From an uncultured virus (IMG/VR IMGVR_UViG_3300038345_000178) (taxonomy: Duplodnaviria; Heunggongvirae; Uroviricota; Caudoviricetes), in IMG/VR virus record IMGVR_UViG_3300038345_000178: a stretch of DNA of 60,788 bases. One strand, given 5' to 3'. The notes beneath the pieces are model-generated. The model made no database searches and had not been told where the DNA came from. It worked only from the letters and a program-made list of their open reading frames with translations. Of this stretch, positions 7,701 to 60,498 are shown one piece after another. Made by a program: the position numbers and the translations under genes. How positions within the stretch are numbered: position 1 is the first letter of the stretch; every line of letters starts with the position of its first letter.

Positions 7701-8338
7701 GGATGTCTTGAACCATCTGACAGTCTTCTATCAACGTTTGTAGTAGGTATAATAACTTCATTAAGCATATCTCCGTCAATAAGGACACATTCTTCCATTA
7801 CTCCACCAGTTCGCCTTTGTCCTCTTGAAGATTGTCTTGCTGCAAGAATATCAATAGATGAATTGTTTTTAAATACATATTTTACGTTATCCTTTGATTT
7901 AGTAGAAACACCGCGGTCCCAATTAATCTCGTTAGATAACGCGGGGATTAATCTACAAATCTATTCAATTTTGGCAATAGTAATACTTGCCGCTTGCTAT
8001 TTACCACCAGTTGTAACAAATAATTGAGAATTAGGATATAAAATACATCGTAACATTAATGCCATCATTGATAAAAATGATTTAGAATATGCACGAGGAA
8101 ATACTCCATATACATATCTATGTCGCATAATTGCTCTTAAAAATATCCTTTGATAAAAAAGAAATTGAAATGTTGAATCTTTCCCCTTAATAAAATCAAC
8201 AAAAATATCAGGATACCATCTAAAAAAAGCAATTAACTCTCTTAATCCATCTAAATCTGTGTTAATTCTTTCTTCAGATAATCCTTGTTTTTTATATTCT
8301 CTATTCTAAGATAATTGTAATAATTCTTTTAAACTCAT
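4718..8338 (-). CDS. terL: Terminase large subunit; 3 exons (8338-7668, 6561-6032, 5253-4718; 578 aa), several TAG read through
   Basis: Spliced frame gives FPRAYSKS (Walker A-like), GVMEE (Walker B), YITTAG, the LGVDVG nuclease motif and IDANGLGVG; exon lengths sum to 1737 nt, a multiple of 3. Confidence 0.85.
5254..6031 (-). mobile_element. Group I intron 2 in terL
   Basis: Minus strand carries core elements TGAATTGCTGG, GGGCAATCAGCAGCCAAG, AGGTTCAACGACTA and GATATAGTCT; 5' exon ends in U (AUGGGU, pairing with intronic GCCCAU); intron starts TAA and ends in G; removal restores DANG-L-GVG. Confidence 0.85.
5364..5909 (-). CDS. HNH homing endonuclease in intron 2 (181 aa, 1 TAG)
   Basis: VHRL...VNHKDGNKRNNCL*NLEWVT..EN motif continues through the TAG at 5637-39 to TAA at 5364. 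Confidence 0.8.
6562..7667 (-). mobile_element. Group I intron 1 in terL
   Basis: Same P/Q/R/S-like core at about 6630-6792; 5' exon ends in U, intron starts TAA and ends in G; removal restores QIY-I-TTAGWK. Confidence 0.85.
6803..7585 (-). CDS. GIY-YIG homing endonuclease in intron 1
   Basis: YIYKI...KIYIGLT...R...H...E...GYNQ pattern followed by HTH-like repeats; GGAGG SD. Confidence 0.85.
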   Translation of the reverse strand: MYYIYKIENLQNHKIYIGLTNNIARRRSRHFTDLKCNRHDNHFLQKEFNIYGENNFIFTVEFKGDISEQEIGQKEQEFIKKYDSYKNGYNQNEGGNFGPSNGGSHLTQSDIYNICAALEFCSRPGGVLSKIFNISLTTVSRIKKEINHNQYINEYKKMSLEERKAIYKIFCDSSNFYEKKVSQTIIKSKRHLTKEQVFMILYNFENKIVSRKKMAELVNISSPYTLDCIKKGLTYKDYNLEYNKLNNEEKQKIVSLFSNE

Positions 8339-9654
8339 ATTTCAAATGACACCCTCCTTGATAAATATTCCTGTTCAATAGATTCATCTGTTAGGTTATC
8401 ATCTACCGCCTTCATATTAGCAAGCTATTCTTTATATTTTGCAAAATCTTCATCTTTTAATTCTACTTCTCTTTTTCCTTGCTTTTTAGCTTCTTCTTGG
8501 TCGCGTTTTCTTTCTTCCCTAATTCGCTTCTCTTGTAAATACTTTTCAATCTCTTGAGCCAATGATTTATCTTCATATATTAAAGTTCTATTATAATCTT
8601 TTAAATCTTGTAAAATTTTATCTACAACATCTTTTGGTTCTTTACAATGATAACGAGGAACTTTTCCAGTATGAGATTCTACATAATCAACAATAGCAGA
8701 AGCAGAATCTAGGGCGGACCCTTCTGATTCTTTGTTCTGCGCCTCTGTAAATTTTGCAGATTTCATCATAGAATCATAAACTCTTGATAATTTTTGATAA
8801 CTATCTATATCTCCGCTATCAATAGCCTAATCCATTTTCAAAGATGTTTTACAAATTTTCTTTAAAGTATCAATTCTTGCCGCCCCTTGAATATCAAATG
8901 AGTTCATAAATTCTGTATATAACTGCTCAAGAGCAACCCATTGCGCTGGAGTGTATAAACGTCCCCATTTCATTGCTAAATAAATTTTATCCTAATGGCT
9001 TAAATTCGCACTTGGATCTTCGCTTAATAATTCTTCTTCTGGTATAAAATTTTTTTCTTGAAAAGGATTTTTTAATTGATTAAGAGCCTACTCATAAGAA
9101 GTAACTTTACTGTTTTTTATAACTCCTGTAATTACATCCCCCTGTACTGGTGGCAGTTCTTTTGCTTGAGTTTCTGTACTAACTAAAGTTTTGTATTCTG
9201 CTTCAGTAATTTGTCCATTTTCAAATCTTTGTTTTAATTCTTTTTCATAGTCTTTTTTTTCTTTTTCTTTTTTTCCCGCCTTTTCTCCAGCTTGCTATTG
9301 AAGCATTTCACTATCTTTATATGAAAAATCTTTCCATTGTTTTAATCGCATTTTTGCAAGATATTTTCCAATTACGGTTGTTCCATTCATTTTATAAGGG
9401 TCTTTTGCAAAAGCTTTATCTCTAATAACGTTCCATTCAATAGGAACGTAAGGAACATCCATTGTTTCTAATACCCATAAAAATGTTTTTTCATCAAAAT
9501 TATCTATATGTGCGGTTAAGCATGCTTTACATAAATTACATTTACTACCGTCTTTATATTGATAAAAATTAATTTCTGTAAGTATCTTATTACATCGTTC
9601 GCACTTACATTTTCCATTTGAATTTGGTAATTGTCCACGTAATCCCTATGGCAT
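8335..9654 (-). CDS. Zn-finger protein overlapping the terL start; candidate small terminase/packaging factor (439 aa, several TAG)
   Basis: MP*GLRG...CERC...CKAC...; the frame continues through TAGs into ORF 8425-8769 and ends at a TGA overlapping the terL ATG (ATGA). Confidence 0.55.
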
Positions 9655-9658
9655 ATAA

Positions 9659-10744
9659 TCATCCTTTCTTAATTTTTTTCTGATTGCGGCAACATTTACA
9701 AATGCTATACCATCCATCTTTAGAAGTTTTATTTTTAGTAAAAAAATAAGGATGTGCTAATTTTATTTCTTGGCACTTTGAACATTTTTTCCATTTACCT
9801 TTTTCTTCAAAAGTGTAATGCCAAACAATCCAATCCTATTTAGCTTTATCTGCTAATAATTTTGGGATTTTTTTACGCCATAATATAGATATATATTCAG
9901 TAGAATAAGTATGTCCATATTTCTACAAAAGAACTTCCGCAATTTGTTTACTTGTTTTATCTTTGAATTTTAATTTTATTAAATCTAAATAAATAGCATA
10001 ATTGCCGCATAAAGTTTTATTTATTAATTTTTCAAAATCATTTATTAAATAATAAAAATCATTTTCAATTTTCCCTGATAATTCTTTTTTTAAATTAGTA
10101 TAATTACACAAAAGACAGCTAATATGAGTTGGATTAAATAAAGATATTAGTCCATCACTTTCCGGTTCGCCTTTTTCATTAATTGTTATATTTTCATTTA
10201 AATGTAATTTTTTTCCAAAATTTCTTATTACTTTTGTAACAACAACAGGTTGCTTAAAAGCATTTTTAATTACATACTGATCTTTTCTCATTTCAATTAA
10301 ATGCTTAGTTAATAATGCTTTTCTTCTACCTACTGCCGCATTTTTTTGTTTTTCAATTAAATCAATAGCTTGCCGCAACTCTGCTAATGGGGGGATGTCT
10401 TGAATATCCTGTTCAGTGATTTGAATTTTTGGAGTAAGGAGTACATTTTTATCTGCTTCAGTTATAAAATTATAAATCCCGCTCTCTTGATTTTCAAGGT
10501 TTTCCGCAAAACCCTAAAAAGAAATTTCTCTCTTATCAACAGTCACCATTCTATTGGGAGTAAGAATATATTTTCCTTTTTTCATATCTGCGGTTTCAGT
10601 TAAATAATTACTTAATTCTTCTAAATAAAATGTAGTTAATTTTTCTTTTGGCACGGTATCTATAATATTATTTACAATCTACTTACGTTTCTAAATATCA
10701 GTGATTGTTGTATCTAACTAAGGATATGGTCTATGTTTTTCCAA
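9659..10744 (-). CDS. HTH and Zn-ribbon protein, putative transcription regulator (361 aa, several TAG)
   Basis: TTG start after AAGGAGG; frame includes ORF 9923-10378 (TSKQIAEVL, HTH-like) and a C-terminal CSKC...CKCC; interrupted only by TAG. Confidence 0.6.
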
Positions 10745-27086: not shown

Positions 27087-27878
27087 TTATTTATCTTCAC
27101 TTAAATCATTATCATAGAAAACGTTTAAATCAACATTCATACCTAAACATTTCCAATAGCTACCTGCCCTATTAGATATAAAAATATCATTTGTTTCAAG
27201 TAATTTTTTTACATCTCTAATTTGTTTATAAGATAGCCCCGTCATATTTTGCAACTCCGCATATGTAAAAGGTTGATGCTATTCACAAATTCTAATAGCT
27301 TCCCAAACTTGTACCAATTGCGGCAGCTTCTTAAACTGCTTATTATTTTCCTACACAATCTTTCTACACTGTTTTAACATACTAATTCGTACACTATATT
27401 GTTCTTGTATATCAGTTTTTAATATTAAAGTAAAATATCCTTTATCATAAGTATCAACATCAAGAATACAGCCCTTCTTTTTTAAAGAAACAATAGCCTT
27501 ATCAATCAAATCGCAATTCTTTTTATTTACCTATGCACCCAAATACTTTAACAATTGCTAATGAGTACCCCTATAAACATTATGTTCAGATACAACAATA
27601 GCCAGAAAAATTAAAAACTAATATTCTTTCAAACTTAAACTCTTTATATTTATGCGGATGTCCCTTTTTTCCTAATAAATAGTTAAAGCTCTTTCTTCTT
27701 CATCAATAGAATAATAGACTTGTCCATCCTCAGCTTTAACTCTATATATATGTTTTATATTTGTATTTTTCTTTTTAATCGCCTACAAAGTCTTTTTAAA
27801 ATTAGCTTTAATACTCGTTGCAGAGTATCCAAACATCTTTCCTAACTATGCGGCGGTTAGCAGCTCACTGGCGTTCAT
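27087..27878 (-). CDS. HTH-containing protein, candidate replication initiator (263 aa, 8 TAG)
   Basis: Open from ATG 27878 to TAA 27087 if TAG is sense; HTH-like segments LTAA*LGKMFGYS and FTYAELQNMTGLSYKQIRDV; invisible in the ORF track. Confidence 0.55.
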
Positions 27879-28063
27879 AAGTCTACTGCCCCCTATCAAA
27901 AATTTGTTCTTCTATCATATTATCAATCTCTCCTGCATTAGCCAATATAGCAATCATAGTAAATATATCAATCCAAAAAGATTTCATCATACTAAAAAAA
28001 CACCAAAAGAGAAAGATAACTACTATACAGGCAGCAATGGCTAGCAAAAATACTAACCCCCGC

Positions 28064-28411
28064 TCAATTTTCTCCTTTACCCCATATTAACGCTCCCTTT
28101 TCTTCAAATTCTTGCTTTTTCTCTTGAACTTGTTTACGAAGTTCTGCAAGACCCTTCGTTGTTACATCTATATTTTTTAATGTTTCATCATAGGGTGCAA
28201 ACTTATTAAATTCAAAAAAATCAGGTATAAATATACCAAATATACCTCTTTTAATTAATTTCTTATTTATTCTTTCCACCTATTTTGCGGCGGTCAGCAA
28301 ATCTACCTAATTTGTTTTTATGGTAAAAATAGCAACATTGCCGGGTTTTACATCATAAGTCTTACCATCAAAAATAAACGGATAAGTAGTTTTTTTATTA
28401 TTTTCCGCCAT
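28064..28411 (-). CDS. Hypothetical protein (115 aa, 2 TAG)
   Basis: ATG at 28411 after AAAGGTG, in frame with ORF 28064-28279 through two TAGs. Confidence 0.5.
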
Positions 28412-28630
28412 TATATTACACCTTTCTTATTACGCAATAAGCGTGTGCAGATTCAAACGCTCTTCTTATCGTTTCTACTGCTTCATCAGTAAATGTTTCA
28501 TCTATTTCAATAAAATATAATGCCCCTGATTCAGGAATAATCTATACAATACTTTCCAAGCATGTTGGATTACCACCATTAATATTAATCATCATTTTTA
28601 TCCTCCATTTTCTTTTTATAATATTTATAA

Positions 28631-30332
28631 TTACTCTTCATTTTCTTCTATTATGCGGGCCCGCATTTTTACAACCATTTCAGGATGTATATCATATATA
28701 AAATCAGTATCGCCGCCTGCTCGCAACATATGAGACAGTCTAAATCTTGCAACATGAAGCGACTAAATTGCCATATCCATTTGATCTAAGTAATGTTCAA
28801 TTTCTTCATGTGAATAGATACAATCATACTTCTTCTATTGCTCTGCTAAATCTCCAGCCAATCTTTCATAATCTTGTGTGATACTATTGGCTATCCTTGC
28901 CATAATTAAAGCAGAATAATCATTTTTAAGATCAACCCATCTTTCTTCACTTTTCCCTTCCAATTTTACGCCCCCAGATTAGTTTTTTTCTTCATTTTTT
29001 ATAAATTCAAGCTGGTCTTTCAATATTTTCCTCGAAATTTCCTCTTTCGACTAAATTTCATTAAAATTCTACCATTTCTTCTTAAATGCGGTTTCCAGCC
29101 CCTAAGCCGCTTCACCCAACTGCCCTTTAATTACGTTTCTAAATGCTGGATATTTCTTGTACATCAATCTCCGCTGTTTCCTATTCATTTTTTACCCTCC
29201 TTTTCCTTCTAATTTTATCGAACAGGGCTTGCTCAATTTCCCACTATTTTTGTTTATCTTTATACTTCTCATATGTTTCATGGTCCTTACGAAAATTTAA
29301 GTTAATTTTGTCAATGTCATGCCGCATTTTAAACTAAAAGAAAACAACAAAACCAACTACAACAATGACAGCAATCAATACTACAGCCATCATAAATCTC
29401 TTCCTCCTAAATGGATATTATAATTATAATAAGGAACAACAGCCGCCATTTGTTCTTGCATTGCCTTATCTAATTCTACTTTTTGCCTTGCTATTGCCAT
29501 ATCCATTGCCATTTTCTGCTCTTCTAATGCTTGGTTTAATTCTATTTTTATTCCTTCAACACACTGCCCATATGTTTTCAATTCAACTATATCTTTGCAA
29601 CAGTGGGATCTATCATCATAAAACTTACACTCTTTACATTCACACTTTACTATTGGCATTTTAATTCTCCTCTTTTTCTTTGCTAAAATCAATAAGAACA
29701 CCATAAACGGTTTCTCCTTTTTCTTTTGCTAAGTCTATTGAAACAAAACCAACAGCCCCCTCTATAAGATCCATCAATGCGGCTGCCGCGTCTCTCACTG
29801 TCTTTTCTTTTGGGAAGACAATTCCCCAACCACTTTCTGGTGGTTCTATATAAACGGGGATTGAGGTAACTTCATTCTTCAGCTCTTCTATCTTTACATT
29901 CATCTTTTGTTTCTCCTTCATTTAATATTAAAATTCCATAAATAGTTTCACCTGTATCAGTATCATAAAAAGACATAACTTTACTATTTGGATACTGTCC
30001 TGAGAGCAATTCCGCACTTCGTGCGGAATTGTCTTCAGGAACAATTAATGTAAATATATCACTGCCAGAGTGACTTGTTATATTTATCTATCTTTTTTCC
30101 ATTATTTTTTATCTCTCCTTTGTTTTATTGCATAAATAGCATTAGCAACCGCTTGATCAATAGAGCCAGCATAATTAACTTCAACCGTATCTATAACAGT
30201 TCCATTCTTTTGCTTCACAATATCCCACCGATATTTTTCTTTTTTGTTTTCCCATATCTCAGGATCTATATGAATAACCGCACCATACCCGCTATTTCTA
30301 TTTGCATCAATAGTCATGATTTCTTCGTCCAT
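28631..30332 (-). CDS. Operon of small minus-strand genes, several containing TAG
   Basis: ORFs 30102-30332, 29661-29921 and 29390-29659, plus TAG-interrupted frames at about 28631-29393. Confidence 0.45.
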
Positions 30333-36655: not shown

Positions 36656-36657
36656 TT

Positions 36658-37085: not shown

Positions 37086-37967
37086 ATGAGACAGATTATA
37101 GCTGAAGTCGTAGAAGAGATGGAAGTGCCTGACTTAAATCCTACTATTGATAGCTCTGTAAAATTATATTTAAAAGAGGTAAGTAGATATCCTCTTTTAA
37201 CAGAAGCAGAGGAGAAGGAGTGTGCTTTGCAGGTTGCTAATGGAAGCAAAGAAGCAGAGCAGCGTCTTATTAATCATAACCTCCGCTTAGTTGTATCTGT
37301 TGCTAAACGCCATATGGGTAGAGGATTACAGCTTCTGGACTTAATACAGGAAGGCAATATGGGTTTAATTAAGGCGGTTGGCAAGTTTGATGCCACTAAA
37401 GGTTTTCGTTTCTCAACTTATGCAACTTGGTGGATAAATCAGGCAATTTCTCGTGCCATCAAGGAACAGTCTCGTAATATTAGACTGCCCATTCATATTA
37501 TTGAAATGATAAGCAACATCAGAAAGGTAGAAAAGGAGTATGCTCAGGCATATAACAGAATGCCTTCTATTGCTGAAGTAGCGGCAGCTCTGAAAATAGA
37601 CGAGGACAAGGTGAAACTTGGTTATAAATGGATAAATGATACATCTTCACTTGATGTATCTGTGGGAGACGATGAGGACACAACCCTTGGAGCTTTCGTA
37701 GAAGATGAAAAAGTGCAGGATGATTTTGCAGCTATTGAAGATGGAGACAGAACAGCTGCAATAGATACTGTATTAAGCACATTAGCCCCCCGTGAAAGAA
37801 CTGTAATAGAAAAGCGGTTTGGTTTGACGGGAATGAAACCAATGACTCTTGAAGAAGTTGGGACTGAATTAAAGTTAAGTAAAGAGAGAATAAGACAGAT
37901 TGAAGCAAAGGCTCTTGAAAAACTACGCAACCCCCGCCGTGCAGCTCTTCTGAAAGCATTTGTATAA
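37086..37967 (+). CDS. RpoD/SigA-like sigma-70 factor
   Basis: Regions 1.2 (YLKEV..YPLLT), 2 (NLRLVVSVAK, DLIQEGN.GL.KAV.KFD..KGFRFSTYATWWI), 3 and 4.2 (TLEEVG....SKERIRQIEAKAL). Confidence 0.92.
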   Translation: MRQIIAEVVEEMEVPDLNPTIDSSVKLYLKEVSRYPLLTEAEEKECALQVANGSKEAEQRLINHNLRLVVSVAKRHMGRGLQLLDLIQEGNMGLIKAVGKFDATKGFRFSTYATWWINQAISRAIKEQSRNIRLPIHIIEMISNIRKVEKEYAQAYNRMPSIAEVAAALKIDEDKVKLGYKWINDTSSLDVSVGDDEDTTLGAFVEDEKVQDDFAAIEDGDRTAAIDTVLSTLAPRERTVIEKRFGLTGMKPMTLEEVGTELKLSKERIRQIEAKALEKLRNPRRAALLKAFV

Positions 37968-37979
37968 TATACCGAAAAT

Positions 37980-38024
37980 TTGATTTTTTAAAAAATTTTT
38001 GGTATAATATATATGTAAGATAAA
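37980..38024 (+). promoter_or_regulatory. Representative copy of a repeated sigmaA-type promoter unit
   Basis: TTGATT-N17-TATAAT-ATATATGTAAGATAAA; similar copies near 30426, 31815, 35316, 37011, 38332, 41973, 42169, 43568, 44248, 44944, 45607 and 48110. Confidence 0.8.
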
Positions 38025-38237
38025 GAAAGACAGGAAACAGCAATTTTTCTATATAAAACAATTTTTCTATATAAAAATTTTAAATTTTTAAATTGTAGTA
38101 AAGAGAGGCTTATCCCATAATATGCTTTAATTGTTATGTTTTCTCATATTGTGGCGAAAATCTAAGAAAAGTGTGCCTGTCTTGGTTCTTGTGGTTTTTC
38201 ATAAAGTTATAACCCCCTTATTAATAAGGGGGCATAT

Positions 38238-38310
38238 GGCACGGTGGTCAAGCGGTTTAAGACGCCAGTCTCTAAAACTGGAAACTAGGGTTCGACTCCC
38301 TGGCGTGCTA
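38238..38310 (+). tRNA. Amber-decoding tRNA, anticodon CUA, tRNA-Glu-like body
   Basis: GGCACGG-TG-GTC AAGCGGTTTAA GAC-G-CCAGT CT CTA AA ACTGG-AAAC-TAGGG TTCGACT CCCTG-GCGTGCT-A; anticodon at 38272-74. Confidence 0.88.
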
Positions 38311-38454
38311 GTCAGCATTATAACAAAAAATTTGATTTTTTATAAAAATTTTGTTATAATATATATGTAAGATAAAGAAAGACAGTTACAGCAAAAACTT
38401 AAAAGCGTTTATTTAGGGAATAAAAGTGTTAAGATTAGCTGTCTTGAATATATG

Positions 38455-38526
38455 GCGGAAGGGTGAAACGGTTTCCATGCTTGGCTCATAACCAAGAGAC
38501 ATTAGGTTCGACTCCTATTTTCTGCA
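38455..38526 (+). tRNA. tRNA-Met/Ile2 (CAT)
   Basis: CTTGG CT CAT AA CCAAG arm and GGTTCGACTCC T-arm; D-arm imperfect. Confidence 0.65.
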
Positions 38527-38973: not shown

Positions 38974-39044
38974 GCTTCCATAGTTTAATGGTAAAACGTG
39001 AGCCTTGTAAGCCCTTGTTCTCAGTTCGACTCTGAGTGGAAGCT
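38974..39044 (+). tRNA. tRNA-Thr (TGT)
   Basis: GCTTCCA/TGGAAGC acceptor, CT TGT AA loop; weak anticodon stem. Confidence 0.7.
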
Positions 39045-49467: not shown

Positions 49468-50352
49468 ATGTATATTTACATGGGTATGTTCTTTAAATCT
49501 CCACAAGACGTTCCAGATTTTGGTAGCATAACAATGTATTTTGTTGGCACTAAGTAGCTGGGATATGTGGAAGAAGGACATAAAAGATTTAGAAAGTATG
49601 CCTTCCAGTCTACAGATTTGAATAAACTATCTTTAATAACAAATGCAATAGATGGCTCCGAAGCATTTGCTGTTGACACTGGAACTACTTATGTATTATA
49701 TGATGGATAGTGGAGTGTAAAAAGCTCTGAATTAAATCCAACAAAAATTGCGGAAATACTTGAAAATATTACTCAAATTGATTATCAAATAGTAAATTAG
49801 TTACCGCAAACTGGTGTAAAAGGAACAATTTATTTAATAGCGAACGAAACTGCATAGGGCGATTATTATGATGAATATATATATATTAATAACGCCTATG
49901 AAAAAATGGGGAATACTGCACCAGCAATTTCTACAATGACTGGAGCTACTGCCAATGCGGCTGGAGCTGCTGGGCTAGTTCCTGCTCCAACAAGCAGCGA
50001 AAAAGATTATTTTCTAAAAGGAGACGGAACCTGGTCACAAATAAATGTAACTAATACAGATACAACCTATACATTGGCTCAAGACCCCAATGATGGGCAT
50101 AAAATTACTTTTACTTCATCAACAGGAAGCGCAACTACAATTACAATTCCTGATGATGATACTACATATAATGCGGCGACCCAGCAAGCAGACGGTTTAA
50201 TGTCTTCAACAGACAAGACTAAATTAGATAACATTACTGTTGCAGATTTGCTAACAACCACAGATATTGTAGTATGCACTCAAGATCAATATGACCAATT
50301 ACAATCAAAACCTGCTTTATTATATTTTATTAAATAGGATGAAGGGGGTTAA
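49468..50352 (+). CDS. Tail-fibre-like protein (294 aa, 5 TAG)
   Basis: One frame through TAGs; GLVPAP...FLKGDGTW and ADGLMSSTDKTKLD fibre motifs. Confidence 0.7.
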
Positions 50353-50357
50353 TATAA

Positions 50358-53231
50358 ATGCCCATTTATTCTCAAAATAAACAAATTGTAAAAATAATGA
50401 ATAATAATAACGATGTTTTATTTAATGCAATAAAGAATATAAATGAAAAGTCTATGACAGGGGCGCCCTCGCTCCAATTTCAATCTAATGGAGATAATTT
50501 AACTAATTATACAATATATGGAAATAAAAATGGAGTAGGAGATTATAATTTAACAACATAGAAATATGATATTCCAATTACGGTTAGTAATAAAAATTTA
50601 TTTGATATGAGTAAAGTAGACCTTGTTAATTTAAATCCACAATTTGGAACTGGAAAAGTTATTCAATTTGATTCTTCTGTTTATAGTTTAGTTATGCCAT
50701 TAGAAGAAGGACTTTATACTTTTTCAATATTAGCTCCGCTTAATGATAATCTACGTAATAGACAAAGAATAGCTTGCTATAGTAGATATCCTCAATTAAA
50801 TGATGAAACATTGTCATGGACTGAAATTTCTCATAGAGAAAATGATGTTGGAGATATTCTTAGTGTTAGGTTTTCAGCGCCGCACGGGACTAAATATATA
50901 ATGATTTTTTTATGGTATAAAGATTATCCTCTTGAAACTATAACTTCTATCCTTGAAAGTATTCAAATTATGATTTAGCCAGGAGATGTTGTAACAAATT
51001 ATATTGCTCATAATAGTAATACAACAAATATTTAGCTTGATGCTCCATTGTCTTTTAATGATAAAAAAGAAATAAAAAATCATAATCTGCAAACATATTC
51101 GGGTTTAAATATTTTCTCAGTAAATACAGAAAAAAAACCTGTAGCTATAACCCTTAATAATGATAATTTTACATATATTAACTCTGGATTACAAAAGTTT
51201 TATATAGTACGTTATTATAATGAAGATGAACTTGTTTATACAGAATATGTTCCTGCTGATAAAAATGCTATGGGTTTAGCTGAAGAGGCTTCACCCAAAA
51301 AAATTAGTTCAGAACAATATGATTATATTTTTAAAGGCTGGAGTGCCATACCTAATCAATCTATTGTAAATGCGAATATATTAAACAATATTACTAATAA
51401 TAAGGATGTATATGCAGTTTTTGAACAGGTTGAAAGGACTTTTACTGTTTAGTTTTATGGTGAAGATATTAATACTCCAATTCAAACAGTTCAGAATGTA
51501 CCTTACGGCGGTACAGCAACTTACACAGGAGCGACACCAACAAGCTCTCAGGCAGGCTATATTTTTTCAGGATGGTCGCCGTCAAATACGAACATCACAG
51601 CAGATACAAGTTGTTATGCTCAATTCAAAGAGGATGAAATGTATGAATCAATAACGGACACTTGGTCGCAAATCATCGCAAATGTGAGCAATGGCACATA
51701 CTCAACAAAATATCAAGTCGGTGACACGAAGAAGATTGACTTAGGCACTGAGGGCGAAGTCATTATGACAATAGTTGGTATTGATGCCGATGACCTTGCA
51801 GACAACAGCGGCAAAGCTCCGATAACTTGGATAAGCAAACAATTGTTGAAAACCAACCACAGAATGAACCCAGAAGAGCAGAGTGGTACATCGGGTACAG
51901 GAATTATCGGAGGTTGGGAGGCTTGCGAGATGAGGAGTTATCTTATCAACACCATCAAGCCGCTCTTGCCGCCGGAAGTCCGTAATGCGTTGAAAACGGT
52001 CAAGAAGTATTCAAGAATATACAATACTTCTAAAACATCAGTTAATAATGTTGTGTCAAATGATGATATTTGGATACCGTCAGCTTATGAGGTGAATTTC
52101 TCAGGTCATGAAACTTCTGGCGTTACATATTCTACCGCATTCCCTGATAATGCAAGCCGAATTAAACACAAGGTCGGTGGCTCTGCGGCGTGGTGGTGGC
52201 TGCGGTCTGCCAGTTCCTACGCTTTCAGAGTTGTCGCCCCCGGTGGTAGTAACAATGGCGGCAGTGCCGCTACTTCAGACGGCGTGGCGGTCGGCTTCTG
52301 CTTAGGTGCACCAACATACACAGTAACATATTATTCACAAGATGGACAAGCAGTTCTCTCAACAGAAACAGTTGAAGAAGGTCATAATTGTATATATTCA
52401 ACTTCACCTACAAAAGAATCTGATACAGACTTTGATTATAATTTTGTGGGCTGGTCAACAGCAACAAATAGTACAACTGCAACCGCAGGAGCCACTGAAA
52501 ACATTCAACAAAATACCGATCTGTATGCTGCATTTAGCAAATCATTTAAAACAGATACTATTTCTGACTCTTGGGAAGAAATAATTGCTAACTGTGATAA
52601 TGGAACATATGCAAGTAAATATCAAGTTGGTGATTTAAAAACAATTAATGTTGGTACAGAAGGTCCTGTTCAAATGCAAATAGTTGCTATTGATACAGAC
52701 TTATTAGCATCTGATAATACCAAGAAAGCACCAATTACATGGATTAGTAAACAGCTATTAAATACTTATAAGGCTATGCATAGTACATCGTCTGGTTATT
52801 TACCAGATTGGGCTAATTGTGATATGAGAACTTATTTAAGAGGCACTATTCTACCAATGTTACCTTCTGTTGTTCAAAATGGAATTAAAGAAGTTACTAA
52901 ATATACTTGTAAACGTACTAGCTCTACAGCATATACGACTGTAAGTGCCACGGAAAATATATGGCTGCCTTCTTATAGAGAGGTTAGTAACAATACTTCA
53001 AACTGTGAGACCTCTGGTGTACAATATAATAGTATATTTACTGATAATGCATCACGAGTTAAATCTAAAGTTGGGAATAGCGCTTATTACTGGTGGACAA
53101 GATCAGCCTCAGGGAACTCGAATAGCGCCGCTTCGTAGCGTTTTGCTGGTATGGATAGCGACGGTACTGCGGGCTACTATGGCCGCATCTGCACCGGTTC
53201 CGTTGGGGTGGCTATTGGATTCTGTACATAA
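50358..53231 (+). CDS. Tail/receptor-binding protein 1 (957 aa, 5 TAG): InlB-B-like repeats plus two DUF6273/CLec-like domains
   Basis: ORFs 50358, 50607, 51048 and 51639 are in one frame broken only by TAG; WW.RS...GV..GFC domain ends. Confidence 0.75.
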
Positions 53232-53400
53232 TAAACCAGAAATGAAATAAAAGGAGTTTTAAAAAGTGTGTCTGTCGTAAAAAGTTAAAGAAAATTATCT
53301 AATTTAGAATATGTATTGGGAGCTATTTTTAAAAATGCAAAATTGGATTAACAGTTAAATGCTATATATATTTATTCTTTTTGGAGGTGAAATATAAATA

Positions 53401-54765
53401 ATGTCTTATCCTTTTTCACACACAATTATAAAAATATTAGACAATTCAGGTAATGAGATTTTACCATTGAAAAACATTACAAGCGTAAATACAATTGCAG
53501 GTTAGCTTCCTGTTATATTTACGTCTAATGGTTCTAATTTAACATATTATGAAATTTATGGAAATACAAATGGAGTTGGAGACTATGATTCAACTACTCA
53601 AAAATATATAATCCCAATTACAATATTTAATTCAGTTTCCTCGCCAACTTCTTCACACACAATTAGATTATCTTTAGATTCTGCATTAACCGCATCTCAA
53701 AAGATAACACTAGTTGATACAAATATTGATATTTCAACATACAGTGGAAAGAATTTAATTACAGTAGATACAACTATTAAACCATCTAAAATTTTAATTA
53801 AAGGGAATATTGATTTAATTAGTATGGGTCCTGAAGTAACTTATACTATTACTTATAAAAATTATGATGGTTCTGCGGTTTTAGATACAGAAACGATTAT
53901 CACCACTTTTGGAGTTAAAGCCAATGCAAGAGGCTATATTAATACTACTCCTACAAGAACTGGAACTGCAGATTTAAATTATACATTTGTAGGATGGTCA
54001 ACCGCCCCAAATCAAACGTCTCGAGCCGACGAAAGCGTGTTTCACAATATTCAAAATGATTTAACTTTATACGCAGCATTTCAAAAAACTTTTACAACAG
54101 ATACTATTTTAGATTCTTGGGAGCAAATTATTGAAAATTGTAATAATGGTACATATATGCATTATCAAATTGGCGATTTAAAAACTCTAGATATTGGCAG
54201 CTAGGGACCAGTTCAAATGGAAATTGTTGCTATTGATACGGACGATAAAGCTGATAATTCTGGCAAAGCCGCAATTACTTGGATAAGTAAGCAATTATTA
54301 AATACAGAACGCAGGATGCACTCAAGCTCTAATGGTTATGCAGCATGGTCTACTTGTGAATTAAGAGGTTATTTAAGAGGTGAATTTTTCTCAACGCTAC
54401 CAATTGTGGTTCAAAATGGTATTAAAGAAGTTACTAAATATACCTCTTAGAGAACTGGAGCCACAGATTGGGCAACTCATTCTAGCACTGAAACTATTTG
54501 GATTCCATCTTCTAAAGAAATTGACAATACTGTTGAAAATAATGGTCCATATTATTCATGTGCAGCTAGAACGACCCCCTGGAGGAGCAAAGACCAAGAT
54601 CCATCATCCTATTGGACATCCTATTGGTGGTTAAGAACCGCTTCTACAGGTCCGGCATATAGTGCTGGCTGCTATCAAAGGGTATTTAATTGCGATAAAA
54701 GCATTAACACAAACGGTGACTATGCCACAAAGTTAAATAAAATAACTTTTGGATTTTGCACATAA
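53401..54765 (+). CDS. Tail/receptor-binding protein 2 (454 aa, 3 TAG)
   Basis: GGAGGTG SD; same domain family; TAG at 53503, 54202 and 54448. Confidence 0.75.
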
Positions 54766-54871
54766 ATATTTTTTAATATATGCAAGAAGGATAACTTCTT
54801 GCATATATTAAATTGACTTTTATTAAAAATTTTGTTATAATAAAATTGGACTATAAAAAAGGAGTGATTAA

Positions 54872-55198
54872 ATGGGAACAATTTCAAAAGTAAAATTACC
54901 AAATGGCACTTAGTATGATATCATTGATGAGAAGGTCGCTCAAAATGCGGCACCTGCATCTGGTACTTTTGATTTATTATTAGCTAAAACCGCAAGTAGT
55001 CACACAGCAGAAACAAATACTACATACAAAAGCGGTTCTAATTTAAATTTTAATGCCGCCACTGGCCAATTAAACATTTCTGGCGGAGTGGCATTAACTT
55101 CAAATGATATAGTAATATGTACAGAAAGCGAATATGAAAGTATGCAATCAAGATCTGGGTTGTTTTATCTCATAAAGGAAGGGGTCCCTTCTCCATGA
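54872..55198 (+). CDS. Short fibre-related protein (108 aa, 1 TAG)
   Basis: C-terminus DIVICTESEYESMQSRSGLFYLIKE is paralogous to the end of 49468-50352. Confidence 0.65.
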
Positions 55199-57114
55199 GT
55201 CTTGTTTCTTCTGATAACAAAAAAATTACAGCAATAAAAGATAATCTTGGAAATGTTCTTATAGATTTTAGAAATACTATCATAGTTTAGCAAGAACTCC
55301 CTATTATGTTTAATTCTTCTGGATATAATTTAACAACATATACTATTGAAGGCAACTCTGGTGGAGTTGGAAACTATGATTCAATAACTCAAAAATATAT
55401 TATTCCAATTACAATTAAAAATAAAAATTTACTTAATTTAAATAATATTGATATTGTAGATTTCTACCCCGATAATGCAAATGGAACTTTAACAAATGCA
55501 ATAGCTAATTGCCACAGTATTGTGGTTCCAATTAAATAGGGTGTATACACTTTTTCAATTAACCATCCTAGTGGATAGCCAGTAAGAAATAGAAATAGAA
55601 TAGCTTGTTTTGAAAATTATCCTCAATTAGGAGATACTTGTTTAACCTGGACAGATACTGCCGTTCGTACTGGTGATATTGTTAGCATTAACTTTTCAGC
55701 CCCTACAAACACAAACTATGCTGTTATTTTTCTTTGGGCAGGAAACAATCCTTATACAACCGAATTAATTAATAATATTATCGTTAATAGATAGTTAATG
55801 ATAGAACCAGGAAGTGCTTTAACTACTTATGTTGAAAACGCGGAACAAACAATCGAATTGTCCTTAAACGATCCTCTATTTACGAATCAGTATGTTTCGG
55901 GTCCAATTGATAATAATACTATAATTCAAACCTATGAAGGATTGAACATATTAACAGTAGACACAACAATAAAACCCTTAACAGTTTTATTAAAAGGAGA
56001 TATTGATTATATAGATGCTGATAATCCTACAATATATAAAATAAGATATTATAATACAAATGGCAATCAATTACTATATACAGAATATATTCCAGCTGGC
56101 GGGAATGCAAATGGCTGGTTAAGAGCTCCATCAAAGCCAAAAGATCAATACGAATATACCTTTGTCGGCTGGAATTTATTAACAAATCAATCTACGGCAA
56201 CACAAAATGTGCTTAATAATATTACTTCTGATAAAGATGTATACGCAGCCTTTTCTGCGGTTGAAGCTTCTTATACAGTTAAATTTATTAATGGAACAAC
56301 TCTTTTGCAAACTGTTAACAACATTCCTTATCAAGGAACTGCAACATATACTGGTAGCACTCCCGTTCATCCAGAATCCCCAGAGAATTATATTTTTACG
56401 GGGTGGCTTCCTTCAAATACTAATATTGAAAACGATATGGTTTGTTATGCTCAATTTCAATATGTGCCTCAAACTATTGAAGATAGCTGGGAAACAATTA
56501 TATCAAATGTTAATAATGGAACTTATTTAAATAAATATCATGTTGGTGATTTGAAAACTATTACTGCTAACGATGGATCTGTATCTATAGATATGGAAAT
56601 TGTTGCTATTGATGCAGATGATAAAGCTGATAATTCTGGCAAAGCCGCAATTACTTGGATAAGTAAGCAATTATTACCATATCCTTATGCAATTGATTCA
56701 TCTTCTGACTTGAGTTGGGAAAATAGTGATATAAGAAGTTTTATAAGAGCAATTACTACAGCTTATTTCCCTTCTATCATACAAAACGCTATTGTCCCTG
56801 TTAAAAAATATTCGATTATTTATGATTCTGGAAATTATACAGAAGCACTTACAACCGACACTACATGGATTCCATCATATAGAGAGATATTTGGTGGTTC
56901 CGCTCATGAAACACACGGTCCAATTTATTCATAGATTTTTTCTAATAATACTTCTCGTATTAAAGTTATAGGAAATAATACTATAGGTTATTGGTGGTGG
57001 CTACGCTCTGTCGAGGGTTTTGATACTTATTATAGAGTTAGTGCAGAGGGTTCTAGTGGAGTTGGTTCTAATCATTAGACAACAGGAACTTTTGCAATAG
57101 GTTTTTGTTTTTGA
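55195..57114 (+). CDS. Tail/receptor-binding protein 3 (639 aa, 6 TAG)
   Basis: ATGA overlap with the upstream gene; single frame through ORFs 55306 and 55798 to TGA. Confidence 0.75.
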
Positions 57115-57151
57115 TATAAATTTTAATAGATAAAAAGGAGGGACGTATTTT

Positions 57152-59353
57152 TTGAGCATCGTTGAAAATGTTAATAATAATGAAACAATTATTATGATAA
57201 AAGATAAACAAGGAAATATTCTTGCTGATTTAAGAAATACTTCTATAATTAGTAAACAATATCCCATTATTTTTAATTCTTCTGGCAATGTTTTATCAGA
57301 TTATATTATTTATGGAAATACAAATGGAGTTGGAGATTATAATTCCACTTCCCAAAAATATATTATTCCAGTAACCATCCATTCAAAAAATTTATTTAAT
57401 GTAAGCAGCGCAACTCTAACAACTTCATATCCAGATAATATAAATGGACAATTTACAGATTAGCTTGATTATTGTCATAGTTTAATACTTCCATTTTCTT
57501 AGGGGGTATATACATTTTCATTAAATTCTCCTACAAATGAGGTACTAAGAAATAGAAACAAAAATAGAATAGCTTGTTATAGCAGCTATCCACAAGTTGG
57601 AGACAATTGTTTAGCTTGGACAGAAAATTATATAAGAGATGAAGATAGATTTAGTATACCATTTTGTGCCCCCGCAGGAACCGCATATATTTCTATTTTT
57701 TTATGGGCATCTAATACATATACAAATGCATATATCGCCGATGTTATTGCTAATAGCGAATTAATGATAGAGCCTGGTAATGAATTTACTTCATATATAG
57801 CTTATAATACTAATACAATAAATTTATCTTTAGATAGCGCACTAACTGCGAATCAAAATATTTCAAAAAAAGATATAAACACTTAGATTTCTACTTACAA
57901 AGGGACAAATTTATTAACAATAGGAACCACTGTGTAGCCTTCAAATGTATTAATTAAAGGAAATATTAATTATGCAGAATCTTCTTATTTTAATATGCAT
58001 AGAGTTCGATTCTATAACCAAGATGGAAGCCAATTATTATATACAGAATATGTGCCCGATGGGAAAAATGCTCATGGATGGGCACTAACTCCTTCAAAAG
58101 CAAGCACAAATCAGTATACTTATAATTTTGTAGGATGGAATATAGCTACAGGGCAAACTGCGGCGACTGCTAATGTACTAAATAATATTATTACTGATAA
58201 GGACGTATATGCTGCTTTTTAGCAAGTTGAAAGAACTTTTACAGTACAATTCTTTTATGATGAAAATGCTAGCACGCCACTTCAAACTGTTGAGAATGTT
58301 CCTTATGGTGGAACGGCGACATATACAGGAAGTACACCTACCAAAACTGACCATACATTTATTGGTTGGGATCCAAGTCCTACAAATGTTACAGAAGATA
58401 TAAGTTGTTATGCTCAATTCATCAAAGCGCCCTATATCACTGATAGTTGGGAAGTAATTTCTCAGAGGTCTGACGCAGGTACGGCACAAAATTATTATTC
58501 TGTCGGAGATTGCAAACCTGTTGTACTTAACGGAACTATGGGTACACTTGCTCTAAATACGACATTATATGTGTATATCTTAGGATTTAATCATAATTCA
58601 AATTTTGAAATACCAGATATAATACCAGATATTATAGCGTCTGGTGCAAAAGGTCCAGATCCAGTTCGACAAGCTTATACTTACTCAATCACATTTGGTT
58701 GTTTCAAAACTGCCGCAACTAATGGCATTGATGTGTGTTTGGTTGACAGTAAGTATAATTCATCCAACACCTCCGGCACAAAATATTTCAATATGTTACA
58801 TAGGGGCTATTACAACTACGGTGGTTGGGCTGGTTCAGATATGCGTTATGACATACTTGGCTCTACTGACGTTCAGCCCTCAGGGTACGGTTCCACTCCG
58901 ACAACATCAAAAACAGGTTATAACGCAACTTCTACGTGTGCAACAAGCCCTGTTGCCAATACGCTTATGTCATGTCTGCCGAGCGACCTGAGAGCCGTTA
59001 TGAAACCCATGACAAAATACACTGATAACAAAGGTGGCAATGGCTCAAATGCAGAGGCAAATGTTACTTCTTCCATAGACTATTTACCGTTGCTGTCTGA
59101 GTATGAGATTCATGGCGTGAGGAGCCATGCAAACCAATATGAGCAGAACAAACAGGCACGATACGCATATTATACTGCTGGCAATAGCAAAGTTAAGTAC
59201 CAACACAGCGCAACTTCGTCTACCGCCACTTGGTGGTGTCGCTCGGCTTGTTACAGCTACTCTCGCGCCTTCTGTCTTGTCAGCACCAGCGGTAGCGCGG
59301 GCAACTACGACGTCAGCAATTCTCGCGGCGTTGCCCCATGCTTCTTAGTGTGA
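57152..59353 (+). CDS. Tail/receptor-binding protein 4 (733 aa, 5 TAG)
   Basis: ORFs 57152, 57995 and 58538 are in one frame; ends WWCRS...GVAPCFLV. Confidence 0.75.
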
Positions 59354-59361
59354 GGTGAAGC

Positions 59362-59757
59362 ATGAAATATATTGTTCATACACGATTTAAAGCTAAAGCA
59401 ATATGTGGAGAAGTCAATCTTCCCGCATTAACTGAAGTCAATCTTAAAGATAATATGCTATATTATCAAGATAAACAACTATGCGTTATTACAAGTGAAA
59501 ACGCTCACAAATACTTTGCCCGTAATGATGATAATAATGGTATGGAACGAGGAAGGCTAACTCAATTAATTAAAAGCAGACTTGAAAAAAATGATGAAAA
59601 GCGTCAAGACAGATGGGATAAAATTTGGAAGGACAAATTGTGTCAAAAATATAAACGTATAGAATATGCAGACTATTGGTTGTGGAACACAGCATTTTTT
59701 AATGCACCAATAGAAGATTTGAAATATATATACAATTTAATTAAGGAGGAAAAATAA
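59362..59757 (+). CDS. Hypothetical protein
   Basis: GAGGTG SD directly after the CLec-like gene. Confidence 0.6.
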   Translation: MKYIVHTRFKAKAICGEVNLPALTEVNLKDNMLYYQDKQLCVITSENAHKYFARNDDNNGMERGRLTQLIKSRLEKNDEKRQDRWDKIWKDKLCQKYKRIEYADYWLWNTAFFNAPIEDLKYIYNLIKEEK

Positions 59758-59758
59758 A

Positions 59759-60085
59759 ATGAAAATTGTTCTTAATGATAATTCAGAAATTACAATAAAT
59801 AGTGCCACTTATGATGGACATTATATAGTAAATTGCGAAAGCACTGCTGCTTATCAAGCACTATGGAATCGTTTTACTGCAAACAATTTGGCGGATTTTA
59901 AATTATTAAATGATGATAATAAACTTGTTGAAAGGACATTATATATCAATCTTTTAAGCACACAAGCAATTTTAAATCCAGATGGAACCGTTACTGGTCA
60001 TTTTTATTTCAATGGTGGCACAAAAGTTCCAAATGAGCTTGAAGAAGCTGGAAGAATTTTATTAGGAGAGGATGAAGCCGAATGA
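59759..60085 (+). CDS. Hypothetical protein
   Basis: AAGGAGG SD, 108 aa. Confidence 0.6.
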   Translation: MKIVLNDNSEITINSATYDGHYIVNCESTAAYQALWNRFTANNLADFKLLNDDNKLVERTLYINLLSTQAILNPDGTVTGHFYFNGGTKVPNELEEAGRILLGEDEAE

Positions 60086-60498
60086 GTTTAATAGATAGAG
60101 CAAGAATATTAAGACCTATTATATAGTCATTAGCAGCTAATTTAGATGATGAAACTGCGCTCGCCGCGATTTAGTTATTTCAAAAATGGCAAACTAATAA
60201 AGAATATCAAAAAGATGAAAAAGTTCGTTATAATGATATTTTATATAAAGTTAATCAAACTCATACCTCTCAAGATGATTGGACTCCTGACATTGCAACA
60301 TCATTATTTTCAAGAGTTTTAATTCCAGATCCAGAACAAATTCCAGTATGGGAGCAGCCCGATAGTACAAATGGATATATGATTGGTGATAAAGTACATT
60401 ATCCTACAATTGAAGATTCAGTTTATGAATCTACAATTGATAATAATGTTTGGTCACCAGTATCATACCCTCAAGGCTGGAAGCTTGTGGAAGAATAA
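60082..60498 (+). CDS. CBM5/12-like carbohydrate-binding domain protein (138 aa, 2 TAG)
   Basis: MSLIDRARILRPII*SLAANLDDETALAAI*LFQKW...Y..DEKVRY...QTHTSQDDWTP...W.QP....GY..GDKV. Confidence 0.7.

What the first reader, a model, noticed from the sequence alone, without database searches (positions are those of the whole stretch)
38238..38310. CUA suppressor tRNA built on a tRNA-Glu-like scaffold
Seen: anticodon CUA, D-arm TG-GTC-AAGCGGTTTAA-GAC, 4-nt variable loop, and under canonical numbering G1.U72, A73 and a G7/G66 mismatch. Established: the Bacillota tRNA-Glu D-arm reads TGGTCAAGCGGTTAAGAC; U11-A24 and absence of nucleotide 47 are GluRS identity elements; GatCAB amidates Glu-tRNA carrying U1-A72. 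Inference: a host non-discriminating GluRS or a phage synthetase could charge it with Glu and GatCAB would skip it, giving UAG=Glu. This agrees independently with the protein evidence. Caveats: including T38237 gives an alternative U1-A72/G73 Gln-like pairing, so the mature 5' end matters, and the anticodon loop also resembles tRNA-Trp. It is the first tRNA of the array, just after the sigma gene.
Basis: partly seen in the sequence, partly recalled or inferred. Interest (0 to 1): 0.92.

Follow-up and report, generated by a model that had tools for sequence, protein, structure and literature searches.

The report
Phage tRNA reading TAG as glutamate
A rumen phage carries a glutamate-type transfer RNA that pairs with the stop codon TAG, and its late genes use TAG where relatives have glutamate, a code change that the phage papers I searched do not report (they give only glutamine for TAG).

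Summary
The tRNA is real: Rfam places it at 38238-38310 (52.8 bits) and its anticodon is CUA.

The window is part of a roughly 140-kb rumen phage. Its late genes (portal, split terminase, tail fibres) hold 63 in-frame TAG codons.

Aligned to 80 related contigs, the window's TAG codons sit on glutamate. Over 25 columns the log-likelihood is -50.1 for E and -70.7 for Q. Against the 34 standard-code relatives alone it is -48.6 for E and -63.0 for Q. All five strongly conserved columns are E.

The tRNA scores 68.6 bits on a Glu model made here and 42.1 bits on a Gln model. It shares G1.U72, pairs 2-5 and A73 with the tRNA-Glu(UUC) of a 90%-identical relative.

A sister lineage with nearly the same tRNA body but a U1-A72 pair reads TAG as glutamine (Q -265 against E -357). 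All seven Glu-reading genomes have G or C at position 1.

No synthetase or release-factor gene lies on four related phage contigs, including a 90%-identical near-complete relative. Charging by a host GluRS and escape from GatCAB are therefore inferred, not shown. The papers I searched report only TAG=Gln for phages.

The parts
38238..38310 (+). Amber-suppressor tRNA(CUA) of glutamate type, numbered 1-73; no CCA is encoded (the tail reads GTC)
   Evidence: Rfam RF00005 52.8 bits; ARAGORN; Glu model 68.6 bits against Gln model 42.1 bits
38272..38274 (+). Anticodon CTA within the loop CTCTAAA
37980..38008 (+). Sigma-70-like promoter with an extended -10 (TTGATT, 17 nt, TG-n-TATAAT). It is the first of two identical copies of a repeated element
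   Evidence: conserved in the relative; the element sits in many different contexts in RNA-library contigs
38016..38237 (+). Leader of about 220 nt between the promoter and the tRNA. 38027-38034 pairs with 38177-38184, and a hairpin at 38214-38233 ends 4 nt before the tRNA
   Evidence: fold z-score -2.91, 0 of 200 shuffles as stable; 92% identical in the relative, with stems kept and the hairpin loop varied. Function not tested
37086..37967 (+). Sigma-70-family gene directly upstream; it contains no TAG
   Evidence: Pfam Sigma70 r1.2, r2, r3 and r4
2701..4269 (-). Portal gene with 3 in-frame TAG. The TAG at residue 168 aligns with E in 66 of 80 relatives, with TAG in 12 and with D in 2
4718..8338 (-). 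Large terminase in three pieces (7628-8338, 5997-6575, 4718-5242) with 6 in-frame TAG. Five of them fall on E-conserved columns
8335..10744 (-). Two late genes (phrog_3314 and phrog_5767 'sigma factor') with 6 in-frame TAG each
49468..60498 (+). Tail-fibre block: four paralogous DUF6273 genes and their neighbours, with 26 in-frame TAG
27087..28963 (-). Three small ORFs with 12 in-frame TAG and no usable homologues

Best explanation
The gene at 38238-38310 encodes a phage amber-suppressor tRNA that descends from a glutamate tRNA and inserts glutamate at UAG. It is transcribed from its own sigma-70-type promoter just after a phage sigma-factor gene. Host enzymes process it at the canonical G1 and add CCA. 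A host glutamyl-tRNA synthetase, most likely of the non-discriminating kind found in bacteria without GlnRS, charges it with glutamate. It keeps G at position 1 (G1.U72, as in this phage lineage's own tRNA-Glu) and a long D loop. It should therefore be a poor substrate for GatCAB and stay Glu-tRNA. Late genes (portal, terminase, fibres) carry TAG in about one in six glutamate positions and can be completed only once the suppressor is present. Early genes contain no TAG.

Shown: the tRNA and its features; TAG=Glu in the alignments; the Glu-type classification; the contrast with a U1-A72 lineage that reads TAG as Gln.

Inferred: which enzyme charges the tRNA, escape from amidation, the mature ends and the timing role.
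For: 1) TAG=Glu in the window.
- Over 25 TAG columns of curated genes against 80 related loci, the log-likelihoods are E -50.1, Q -70.7, D -74.8 and K -74.9.
- Against only the 34 relatives without any in-frame TAG, over 24 columns, they are E -48.6 and Q -63.0. E counts in the conserved columns are portal 168, 33 of 34; terminase columns 19 of 20, 23 of 23, 31 of 31 and 28 of 31.
- Of 1168 TAG codons in relatives, 576 align with E in the window, 191 with TAG, 58 with Q and 52 with D. A relative has TAG in 132 of 241 E columns and in 25 of 131 Q columns.

2) Glu character of the tRNA.
- The Glu covariance model gives 68.6 bits and is the best hit in the window. The Gln model gives 42.1 bits.
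- The tRNA has U11-A24, a 4-nt variable loop and A73.
- The 139.6-kb relative's own tRNA-Glu(UUC) shares G1.U72, G2-C71, C3-G70, A4-U69, C5-G68, A73 and the T loop TTCGACT with it.
- Among distinct tRNAs collected, Glu has G or C at position 1 in 19 of 20 complete genes, and Gln has an A/U pair at 1-72 in 14 of 15.

3) Natural contrast between lineages.
- Seven genomes that read TAG as E carry suppressors with G.U, C-G or G-C at 1-72: the window, G004:C44, G001, G102, G103, G104 and G105.
- G003:C2 has the same D and anticodon arms but U1-A72 and reads TAG as Q (-265.3 against E -357.0; conserved columns Q 34, E 2).

4) Presence tracks recoding. One tRNA(CUA) was found in 4 of 4 complete E-type relatives. 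None was found among the 59 tRNAs in the model-hit loci of 5 standard-code relatives.

5) No RF-1/RF-2 domain and no class-Ic synthetase lies on the four phage contigs searched.

6) Published rule (passages read, PMC2811023). Bacterial GatCAB recognises U1-A72 and rejects tRNA-Glu through G1-C72 and an extra D-loop base.

7) Codon usage, a soft point. GAG falls from 2.1% of codons in TAG-free genes to 0.8% in TAG-bearing genes, while TAG plus GAG makes 1.9%.
Against: - No aminoacylation, proteomic or end-mapping data exist. RNA-library contigs did not cover the tRNA body.
- ARAGORN prefers the shifted register U1-A72/G73. The canonical register has a G7xG66 mismatch.
- The CUA anticodon alters positions 34 and 36. 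I recall, and did not check here, that these are GluRS identity elements in E. coli.
- G1.U72 has not been tested with GatCAB: the string 'G1-U72' was absent from the one GatCAB paper I searched.
- The scaffold alone does not fix the amino acid. The Gln-reading lineage's suppressors also score slightly higher on the Glu model (67 against 62 bits). The same D arm also occurs in that phage's tRNA-Gln and tRNA-Cys.
- Two of the 24 window TAG columns favour Q among standard-code relatives (Q16/E4 and Q12/E5). Several columns are variable, with K, S or N.
- The host is unknown. The MAG bin holding the closest relative has no tRNA resembling the suppressor outside the phage contig.
- Contigs G097, G098 and G101 gave only 6-10 TAG columns and no decision; G097 and G098 carry the G1-C72 suppressor, G101 a G1.U72 one. 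For G097 the values are Q -24.7, K -25.1 and E -27.9.
- The two isotype models rest on only 10 and 7 tRNAs, mostly from phages.
Confidence: 0.82

Rival explanations
1. Standard phage 'code 15': the tRNA matures from U38237 as a U1-A72/G73 tRNA. It is charged with Gln directly by GlnRS, or by GluRS followed by GatCAB, so TAG means glutamine.
For: ARAGORN calls 38237-38311 with seven paired acceptor positions. The canonical register has a G7xG66 mismatch. TAG=Gln is the only phage reassignment of TAG in the papers read. A related lineage with a true U1-A72 suppressor does read TAG as Gln.
Against: The window's TAG columns fit E over Q by 14 to 21 log units, and all five strongly conserved columns are E. 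The Gln model scores only 42.1 bits even in the shifted register. U at -1 is generic here, in 18 of 20 tRNAs. In the 90%-identical relative the shifted 'discriminator' changes from G to T while A73 is kept. The shift would put an extra base between the T stem and the acceptor stem.
Confidence: 0.04
2. Ambiguous decoding: the tRNA is charged with Glu but is partly amidated, or is partly mischarged by another synthetase. TAG then gives a mixture of Glu and Gln.
For: G.U at 1-72 is weaker than G-C, and its effect on GatCAB is untested: the one paper searched does not mention it. Some variable TAG columns hold both E and Q. E and Q are often interchangeable.
Against: TAG sits in columns where standard-code relatives have E only, 31 of 31 and 23 of 23. 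A sizeable Gln fraction would be costly there. The phage lineage's own tRNA-Glu(UUC) has the same G1.U72, and it must stay Glu.
Confidence: 0.1
3. The tRNA carries another amino acid, such as Trp (similar anticodon loop) or Lys, or it is not the decoder and TAG is read by a host tRNA.
For: A few TAG columns show K as the most frequent residue.
Against: The log-likelihoods are K -74.9 and W -111.5 against E -50.1. It is the only tRNA(CUA) in the complete relative. Presence of such a tRNA tracks TAG recoding across relatives.
Confidence: 0.03

Closest known systems
Suppressor tRNA(CUA) of TAG-recoded 'code 15' phages (crAss-like, Lak, phAss-1; PMC10607447, bioRxiv 10.1101/2021.08.26.457843, passages read)
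   Same: A phage-encoded tRNA with a CUA anticodon. TAG is used as a sense codon in late and structural genes, while early genes and the tRNA region stay in standard code. No cognate synthetase is encoded.
   Different: Those tRNAs are typed as Gln and their TAG codons align with Gln. Here TAG aligns with Glu, and the tRNA has G1.U72, A73, U11-A24 and a 4-nt variable loop and scores as Glu.
Bacterial and phage tRNA-Glu(UUC/CUC)
   Same: The D arm is identical, apart from one extra U, to a chromosomal tRNA-Glu of a MAG titled Erysipelotrichaceae (L172). The top of the acceptor stem, A73 and the T loop are shared with a relative's phage tRNA-Glu(UUC). The variable loop has 4 nt.
   Different: The anticodon is CUA instead of YUC. 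Pair 1-72 is G.U rather than the bacterial G-C, although 8 of 20 complete Glu tRNAs collected here (21 distinct, one truncated; mostly phage-encoded) also have G.U. Pair 7-66 is a mismatch.
tRNA-Gln of the indirect pathway (non-discriminating GluRS plus GatCAB; PMC2811023, passages read)
   Same: It may use the same charging enzyme, GluRS. The D-arm architecture is similar.
   Different: It lacks the U1-A72 pair that bacterial GatCAB recognises, and its D loop is longer. The product would therefore stay Glu-tRNA.
Eukaryotic nuclear codes in which UAG means Glu (peritrich ciliates, Blastocrithidia; NCBI tables 30 and 31, recalled, not read here)
   Same: UAG is read as glutamate by a tRNA-Glu-derived suppressor.
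   Different: Those are cellular codes that also reassign UAA. Here UAA and UGA still terminate all 38 genes checked. The change belongs to a virus whose host presumably uses the standard code.
The sister lineage in the same phage family (G003:C2, L131/L132)
   Same: The D arm and the anticodon arm are identical. The genome size is the same and the portal is homologous (60% identity).
   Different: That lineage has U1-A72, the variable loop TTTC and a different T arm, and it reads TAG as Gln.

Membership tests
tRNA (Rfam RF00005) | Cloverleaf that scores above the gathering threshold of 29 bits | tested here: met
   52.8 bits over the full model length, at 38238-38310
Amber suppressor tRNA | Anticodon CUA in a 7-nt loop with U33 and a purine at 37 | tested here: met
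   The loop reads CTCTAAA
Amber suppressor tRNA | In-frame TAG in genes of the same genome that need read-through | tested here: met
   63 in-frame TAG in 17 ORFs. Portal, terminase and fibres are full length only when TAG is read through
tRNA-Glu | Best score on a Glu isotype model | tested here: met
   In-house models give Glu 68.6 bits and Gln 42.1 bits. The tRNAscan-SE isotype models were not available
tRNA-Glu | Augmented D helix: U11-A24, a non-Watson-Crick 13-22 pair, and nucleotide 47 missing (4-nt variable loop). This definition is recalled from work on E. coli GluRS | tested here: met
   U11-A24, A13/A22 and the variable loop AAAC are present. U11-A24 occurs in 13 of 21 Glu tRNAs collected and a 4-nt loop in 14 of 21
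tRNA-Glu | G1-C72 as the first pair | tested here: not met
   The pair is G1.U72. It is also G.U in 8 of the 20 complete Glu tRNAs collected (21 distinct, one truncated), including the relative's tRNA-Glu(UUC)
tRNA-Glu | Anticodon YUC | tested here: not met
   The anticodon is CUA
tRNA-Glu | Charged with glutamate by GluRS | not testable with these tools
   Only indirect evidence: TAG aligns with Glu
tRNA-Gln | Weak U1-A72 or A1-U72 first pair (14 of 15 Gln tRNAs collected) | tested here: not met
   G1.U72 in the canonical register. U-A arises only in the shifted register, which needs an extra base after the T stem
tRNA-Gln | G73 (12 of 15), C11-G24 (10 of 15) and a variable loop of 5-6 nt (9 of 15) | tested here: not met
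   A73, U11-A24 and a 4-nt loop
Code-15 phage (TAG=Gln) | TAG columns align with Gln | tested here: not met
   E -50.1 against Q -70.7; E -48.6 against Q -63.0 with standard-code relatives only

The most novel reading that the evidence does not exclude
Within one family of roughly 140-kb rumen phages, TAG has been captured several times, and its meaning is set by the top of the suppressor's acceptor stem together with the host's route to Gln-tRNA. In hosts without GlnRS (non-discriminating GluRS plus GatCAB), a Glu-type tRNA(CUA) with G or C at position 1 escapes amidation and TAG means Glu. With U1-A72, nearly the same tRNA body gives Gln. This would be a natural single-base-pair identity switch and a phage genetic code (TAG=Glu) that has no NCBI table for prokaryotes or their viruses.
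Probability: 0.45. Interest if true: 0.93.

Novelty: new variant of a known kind. Interest (0 to 1): 0.88.

Why it matters
- Annotation. Gene callers and databases translate TAG-recoded phages with table 15 (TAG=Gln). For this family that puts the wrong residue at about one in six glutamate positions of structural proteins.
- Range of phage codes. The survey I read states that only TAG=Gln and TGA=Trp were seen in phages that differ from their host. A TAG=Glu lineage widens what phages can do with host synthetases.
- tRNA identity. The Glu- and Gln-reading sister lineages have nearly the same tRNA body and differ at pair 1-72. That makes the question of how Glu and Gln identity are separated directly testable on natural sequences.
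- Tools. The tRNA is a candidate natural glutamate-inserting amber suppressor for Gram-positive hosts.

Tried and rejected
- Own genome: none is held for the window.
- GenBank phages: a megablast of 36000-48000 found nothing.
- End mapping from RNA libraries. Four metatranscriptome runs are kept only as contigs. They gave no cover over the tRNA body and no start or end information, so the mature 5' end stays open.
- Raw match counts between tRNAs were misleading, because long Ser and Leu tRNAs and a phage tRNA-Cys ranked first. I replaced them by a structural parse and covariance models.
- My first per-genome decoding run was contaminated by spurious overlapping ORFs and by the N run read as X: the window gave E -150.7 against Q -151.2, with 8 'L-conserved' columns. 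I fixed it by choosing non-overlapping ORFs greedily and requiring a real TAG codon.
- Decoding of contigs G097, G098, G100 and G101 gave only 6-10 TAG columns and no decision. G099 had none.
I replaced it by targeted family searches.
- A fibre protein found no match in five suppressor-bearing contigs.
- Host assignment from MAG bins is weak. The bin families do fit the model: the family holding C-G suppressors has GlnRS in 0 of 41 genomes and GatB in 40 of 41; the family holding the Gln-reading phage has GlnRS in 5 of 5 and GatB in 0 of 5; two others have GlnRS in 3 of 21 and 0 of 21. Binning of a phage contig does not show infection.
- Literature searches for TAG=Glu in phages found no such report. 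Supplements were not opened.

Full report
**The object.** The sequence at 38238-38310 is a tRNA gene. Rfam's tRNA model matches it over its full length with 52.8 bits. ARAGORN reports it one base wider on each side, at 38237-38311, with anticodon cta. Read directly, it has:
- acceptor strands GGCACGG and GCGTGCT, giving G1.U72, five Watson-Crick pairs and a G7xG66 mismatch;
- A73 as discriminator;
- the D arm TG / GTC / AAGCGGTTTAA / GAC;
- the anticodon arm CCAGT / CTCTAAA / ACTGG;
- the 4-nt variable loop AAAC;
- a standard T arm;
- no encoded CCA.

It lies 270 nt downstream of a sigma-70-family gene at 37086-37967 and opens an array of about 20 tRNA genes.

**Context.** No cellular genome is held for the window. 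The gene content is that of a tailed phage: a portal, a large terminase split by three homing-endonuclease insertions, and DUF6273 fibre genes.
- Under the standard code the late genes fall apart. With TAG read through they become full length.
- Seventeen ORFs hold 63 in-frame TAG codons. Twenty-one long ORFs of the early and middle region hold none. All 38 end in TAA or TGA.
- A 139,570-bp contig (G004:C44) is about 90% identical to the window and circularly permuted against it. It keeps the tRNA at 99% identity.
- Public runs that hold the region are labelled bovine or goat gut.

**What TAG means.**
- I translated the TAG-bearing genes with X at TAG and aligned them by tblastn to 80 related loci found through the portal. 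At the conserved positions the relatives have glutamate or TAG itself. Portal residue 168 shows E 66, TAG 12 and D 2. The terminase columns show E 37 with TAG 17, E 44 with TAG 14, E 59 with TAG 13, and E 55 with TAG 14.
- I then ran a test in the spirit of Codetta. Each column counts as one observation, and the substitution table comes from the same alignments. Over 25 columns it gives E -50.1, Q -70.7, D -74.8 and K -74.9.
- To avoid circularity I repeated the test with only the 34 relatives that have no in-frame TAG. Over 24 columns it gives E -48.6 and Q -63.0. Two columns lean to Q (Q16/E4 and Q12/E5), and several are variable.
- In the reverse direction, 1168 TAG codons in relatives align with E in the window 576 times, with TAG 191 times, with Q 58 times and with D 52 times. 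A relative has TAG in 132 of 241 E columns but in only 25 of 131 Q columns.
- Codon counts agree loosely. GAG is depleted in TAG-bearing genes, and TAG plus GAG restores its usual share.

**What kind of tRNA it is.**
I parsed them on the T loop and the anticodon.
- Gln tRNAs have an A/U first pair in 14 of 15, G73 in 12 of 15 and C11-G24 in 10 of 15.
- Glu tRNAs have G or C at position 1 in 19 of 20 complete genes (G.U 8, G-C 8, C-G 3), A73 in 19 of 21 and U11-A24 in 13 of 21.
- The window's tRNA has the Glu states throughout.
- Its D arm equals, but for one extra U, that of a chromosomal tRNA-Glu(UUC) in a MAG titled Erysipelotrichaceae (L172).
- The complete relative's own tRNA-Glu(UUC) shares with it G1.U72, the next four acceptor pairs, A73 and the T loop.
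- Two covariance models built here, Glu from 10 genes and Gln from 7, score the window's tRNA at 68.6 and 42.1 bits. It is the best Glu-model hit in the window. These are small in-house models, not the tRNAscan-SE isotype models.

**The alternative register.** Including T38237 gives U-A, G.U and five Watson-Crick pairs with G38311 as discriminator, and ARAGORN prefers this. Four observations speak against it.
- It needs an extra base between the T stem and the acceptor stem.
- T at -1 is the rule in this array (18 of 20 tRNAs), and T-1 together with A73 occurs in 11 of 20.
- In the 90%-identical relative, A73 is kept while the next base changes from G to T.
- Glu-type suppressors of other lineages cannot shift, because they have C73, U73 or A at -1.

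The mature end was still not observed.

**A natural contrast.**
- I fetched four whole related contigs and decoded each in the same way, using non-overlapping ORFs. G004:C44, with a G1.U72 suppressor, gives E -226.5 against Q -268.7 over 96 columns. G001, with a C1-G72 suppressor, gives E -168.7 against Q -182.8 over 67 columns.
- G003:C2 gives Q -265.3 against E -357.0 over 119 columns, with 34 Q-conserved and 2 E-conserved columns. Its portal is 60% identical to the window's. Its suppressor has the same D arm and anticodon arm as the window's but a U1-A72 pair.
- G002 carries a clearly Gln-like suppressor with U1-A72, G73 and a 5-nt variable loop. It leans to Q only weakly.
- Four further complete relatives read TAG as E, with E:Q counts of 14:0, 15:1, 17:1 and 27:2. 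Each carries one tRNA(CUA), with C1-G72 in three and G1-C72 in one. Their body resembles a second bacterial tRNA-Glu type (L171).
- Taken together, none of the seven Glu-reading genomes has U-A at 1-72, and both Gln-reading genomes have it.
- The G001 suppressor (CGCTCAG...ATGAGCG) and the G003:C2 suppressor (TGCTCAG...CTGAGCA) differ in the acceptor stem only at pairs 1-72 and 7-66.
- In five standard-code relatives, none of the 59 tRNAs in the loci hit by the Glu model has a CUA anticodon.
- On a portal tree of 84 rows, the window sits in a 41-row Glu-reading clade with SH-aLRT support of 99. A second Glu-reading clade of 4 rows and two Gln-reading branches lie among 37 standard-code rows.

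**Mechanism.**
- No RF-1/RF-2 domain and no GluRS/GlnRS-type domain lies on the four phage contigs searched. Host enzymes must therefore do the charging.
- The passages I read in PMC2811023 state that bacterial GatCAB recognises the U1-A72 pair. They also state that it rejects tRNA-Glu through G1-C72 and an extra D-loop base.
- The window's tRNA has G at position 1 and a D loop two bases longer than the commonest Gln D loop in my set.
- I infer that a host GluRS charges the tRNA and that it stays Glu-tRNA.
- The MAG bins that happen to hold these phage contigs fit this picture, but a bin does not show a host. The family holding C-G suppressors has GlnRS in 0 of 41 genomes and GatB in 40 of 41. 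The family holding the Gln-reading phage has GlnRS in 5 of 5 and GatB in 0 of 5.
- The effect of G.U at 1-72 on GatCAB, and GluRS tolerance of a CUA anticodon, were not tested here. The string 'G1-U72' was absent from the paper I searched.

**Expression.**
- A sigma-70-like promoter with an extended -10 lies at 37980-38008. An identical copy at 38332-38360 precedes the next tRNA.
- The 220-nt leader folds better than all 200 shuffles and is 92% conserved in the relative.
- A role for these elements in timing is inference.

**Novelty.**
- Five full-text searches found no report of TAG=Glu in phages.
- The phAss-1 paper types its suppressors as Gln.
- Earlier notes of this scan on other windows reached TAG=Glu for rumen phages. 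They agree with this report but are not independent evidence.
- The kind of system, a phage suppressor tRNA with late-gene recoding, is known. The amino acid, the Glu-type tRNA and the Glu/Gln split within one family are new.

Noticed in passing
window 4294-7585 (-): The large terminase is in three pieces (7628-8338, 5997-6575, 4718-5242). They are separated by a GIY-YIG gene (6803-7585) and an HNH gene (5364-5909), and a further HNH gene (4294-4650) follows. The two HNH genes themselves contain in-frame TAG. I did not determine whether the insertions are introns or inteins.
   Followed up: partly
window 38609-38941 (+): Contigs from three RNA-library runs match this gene-free stretch between two tRNAs without a single difference. 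They stop near a terminator-like hairpin at 38908-38933. Rfam gives no match, and the fold is no better than shuffles (z -0.22). It may be an abundant non-coding RNA.
   Followed up: partly
window 38455-38526 (+): A tRNA with anticodon CAT is found by Rfam (38.7 bits) but not by ARAGORN at default settings. It has its own copy of the promoter element (38332-38360).
   Followed up: partly
window 48498-48573 (+): ARAGORN calls this a tRNA 'Tyr' with anticodon ATA. The anticodon loop reads AGATATC, without the usual U33. Rfam gives 43.7 bits. Its meaning is unknown. A standard-code relative (G107) has a similar call.
   Followed up: no
window 6145-6226 (-): ARAGORN calls a tRNA-Thr(tgt) inside the second terminase piece, on the coding strand. 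It is probably a false call or part of an insertion element.
   Followed up: no
window 37978-38028 and 38330-38385: This roughly 50-nt promoter element occurs in many different sequence contexts in RNA-library contigs. It is therefore probably repeated many times in these phage genomes.
   Followed up: partly
L211 1500-1574 (G102): A complete Glu-reading relative also carries a tRNA with anticodon TTA, which would pair with the stop codon TAA.
   Followed up: no
relatives L003-L082: 73 in-frame TGA and 9 in-frame TAA codons appear inside tblastn alignments to the window's proteins. I did not check whether they are alignment run-over at gene ends or something else.
   Followed up: no
window 22834-22933: A run of 100 N marks an assembly gap.
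   Followed up: no
window 50358-59353 (+): Four paralogous fibre genes carry DUF6273 and Listeria-Bacteroides repeat domains. Between paralogues, TAG in one often faces E in another.
   Followed up: partly
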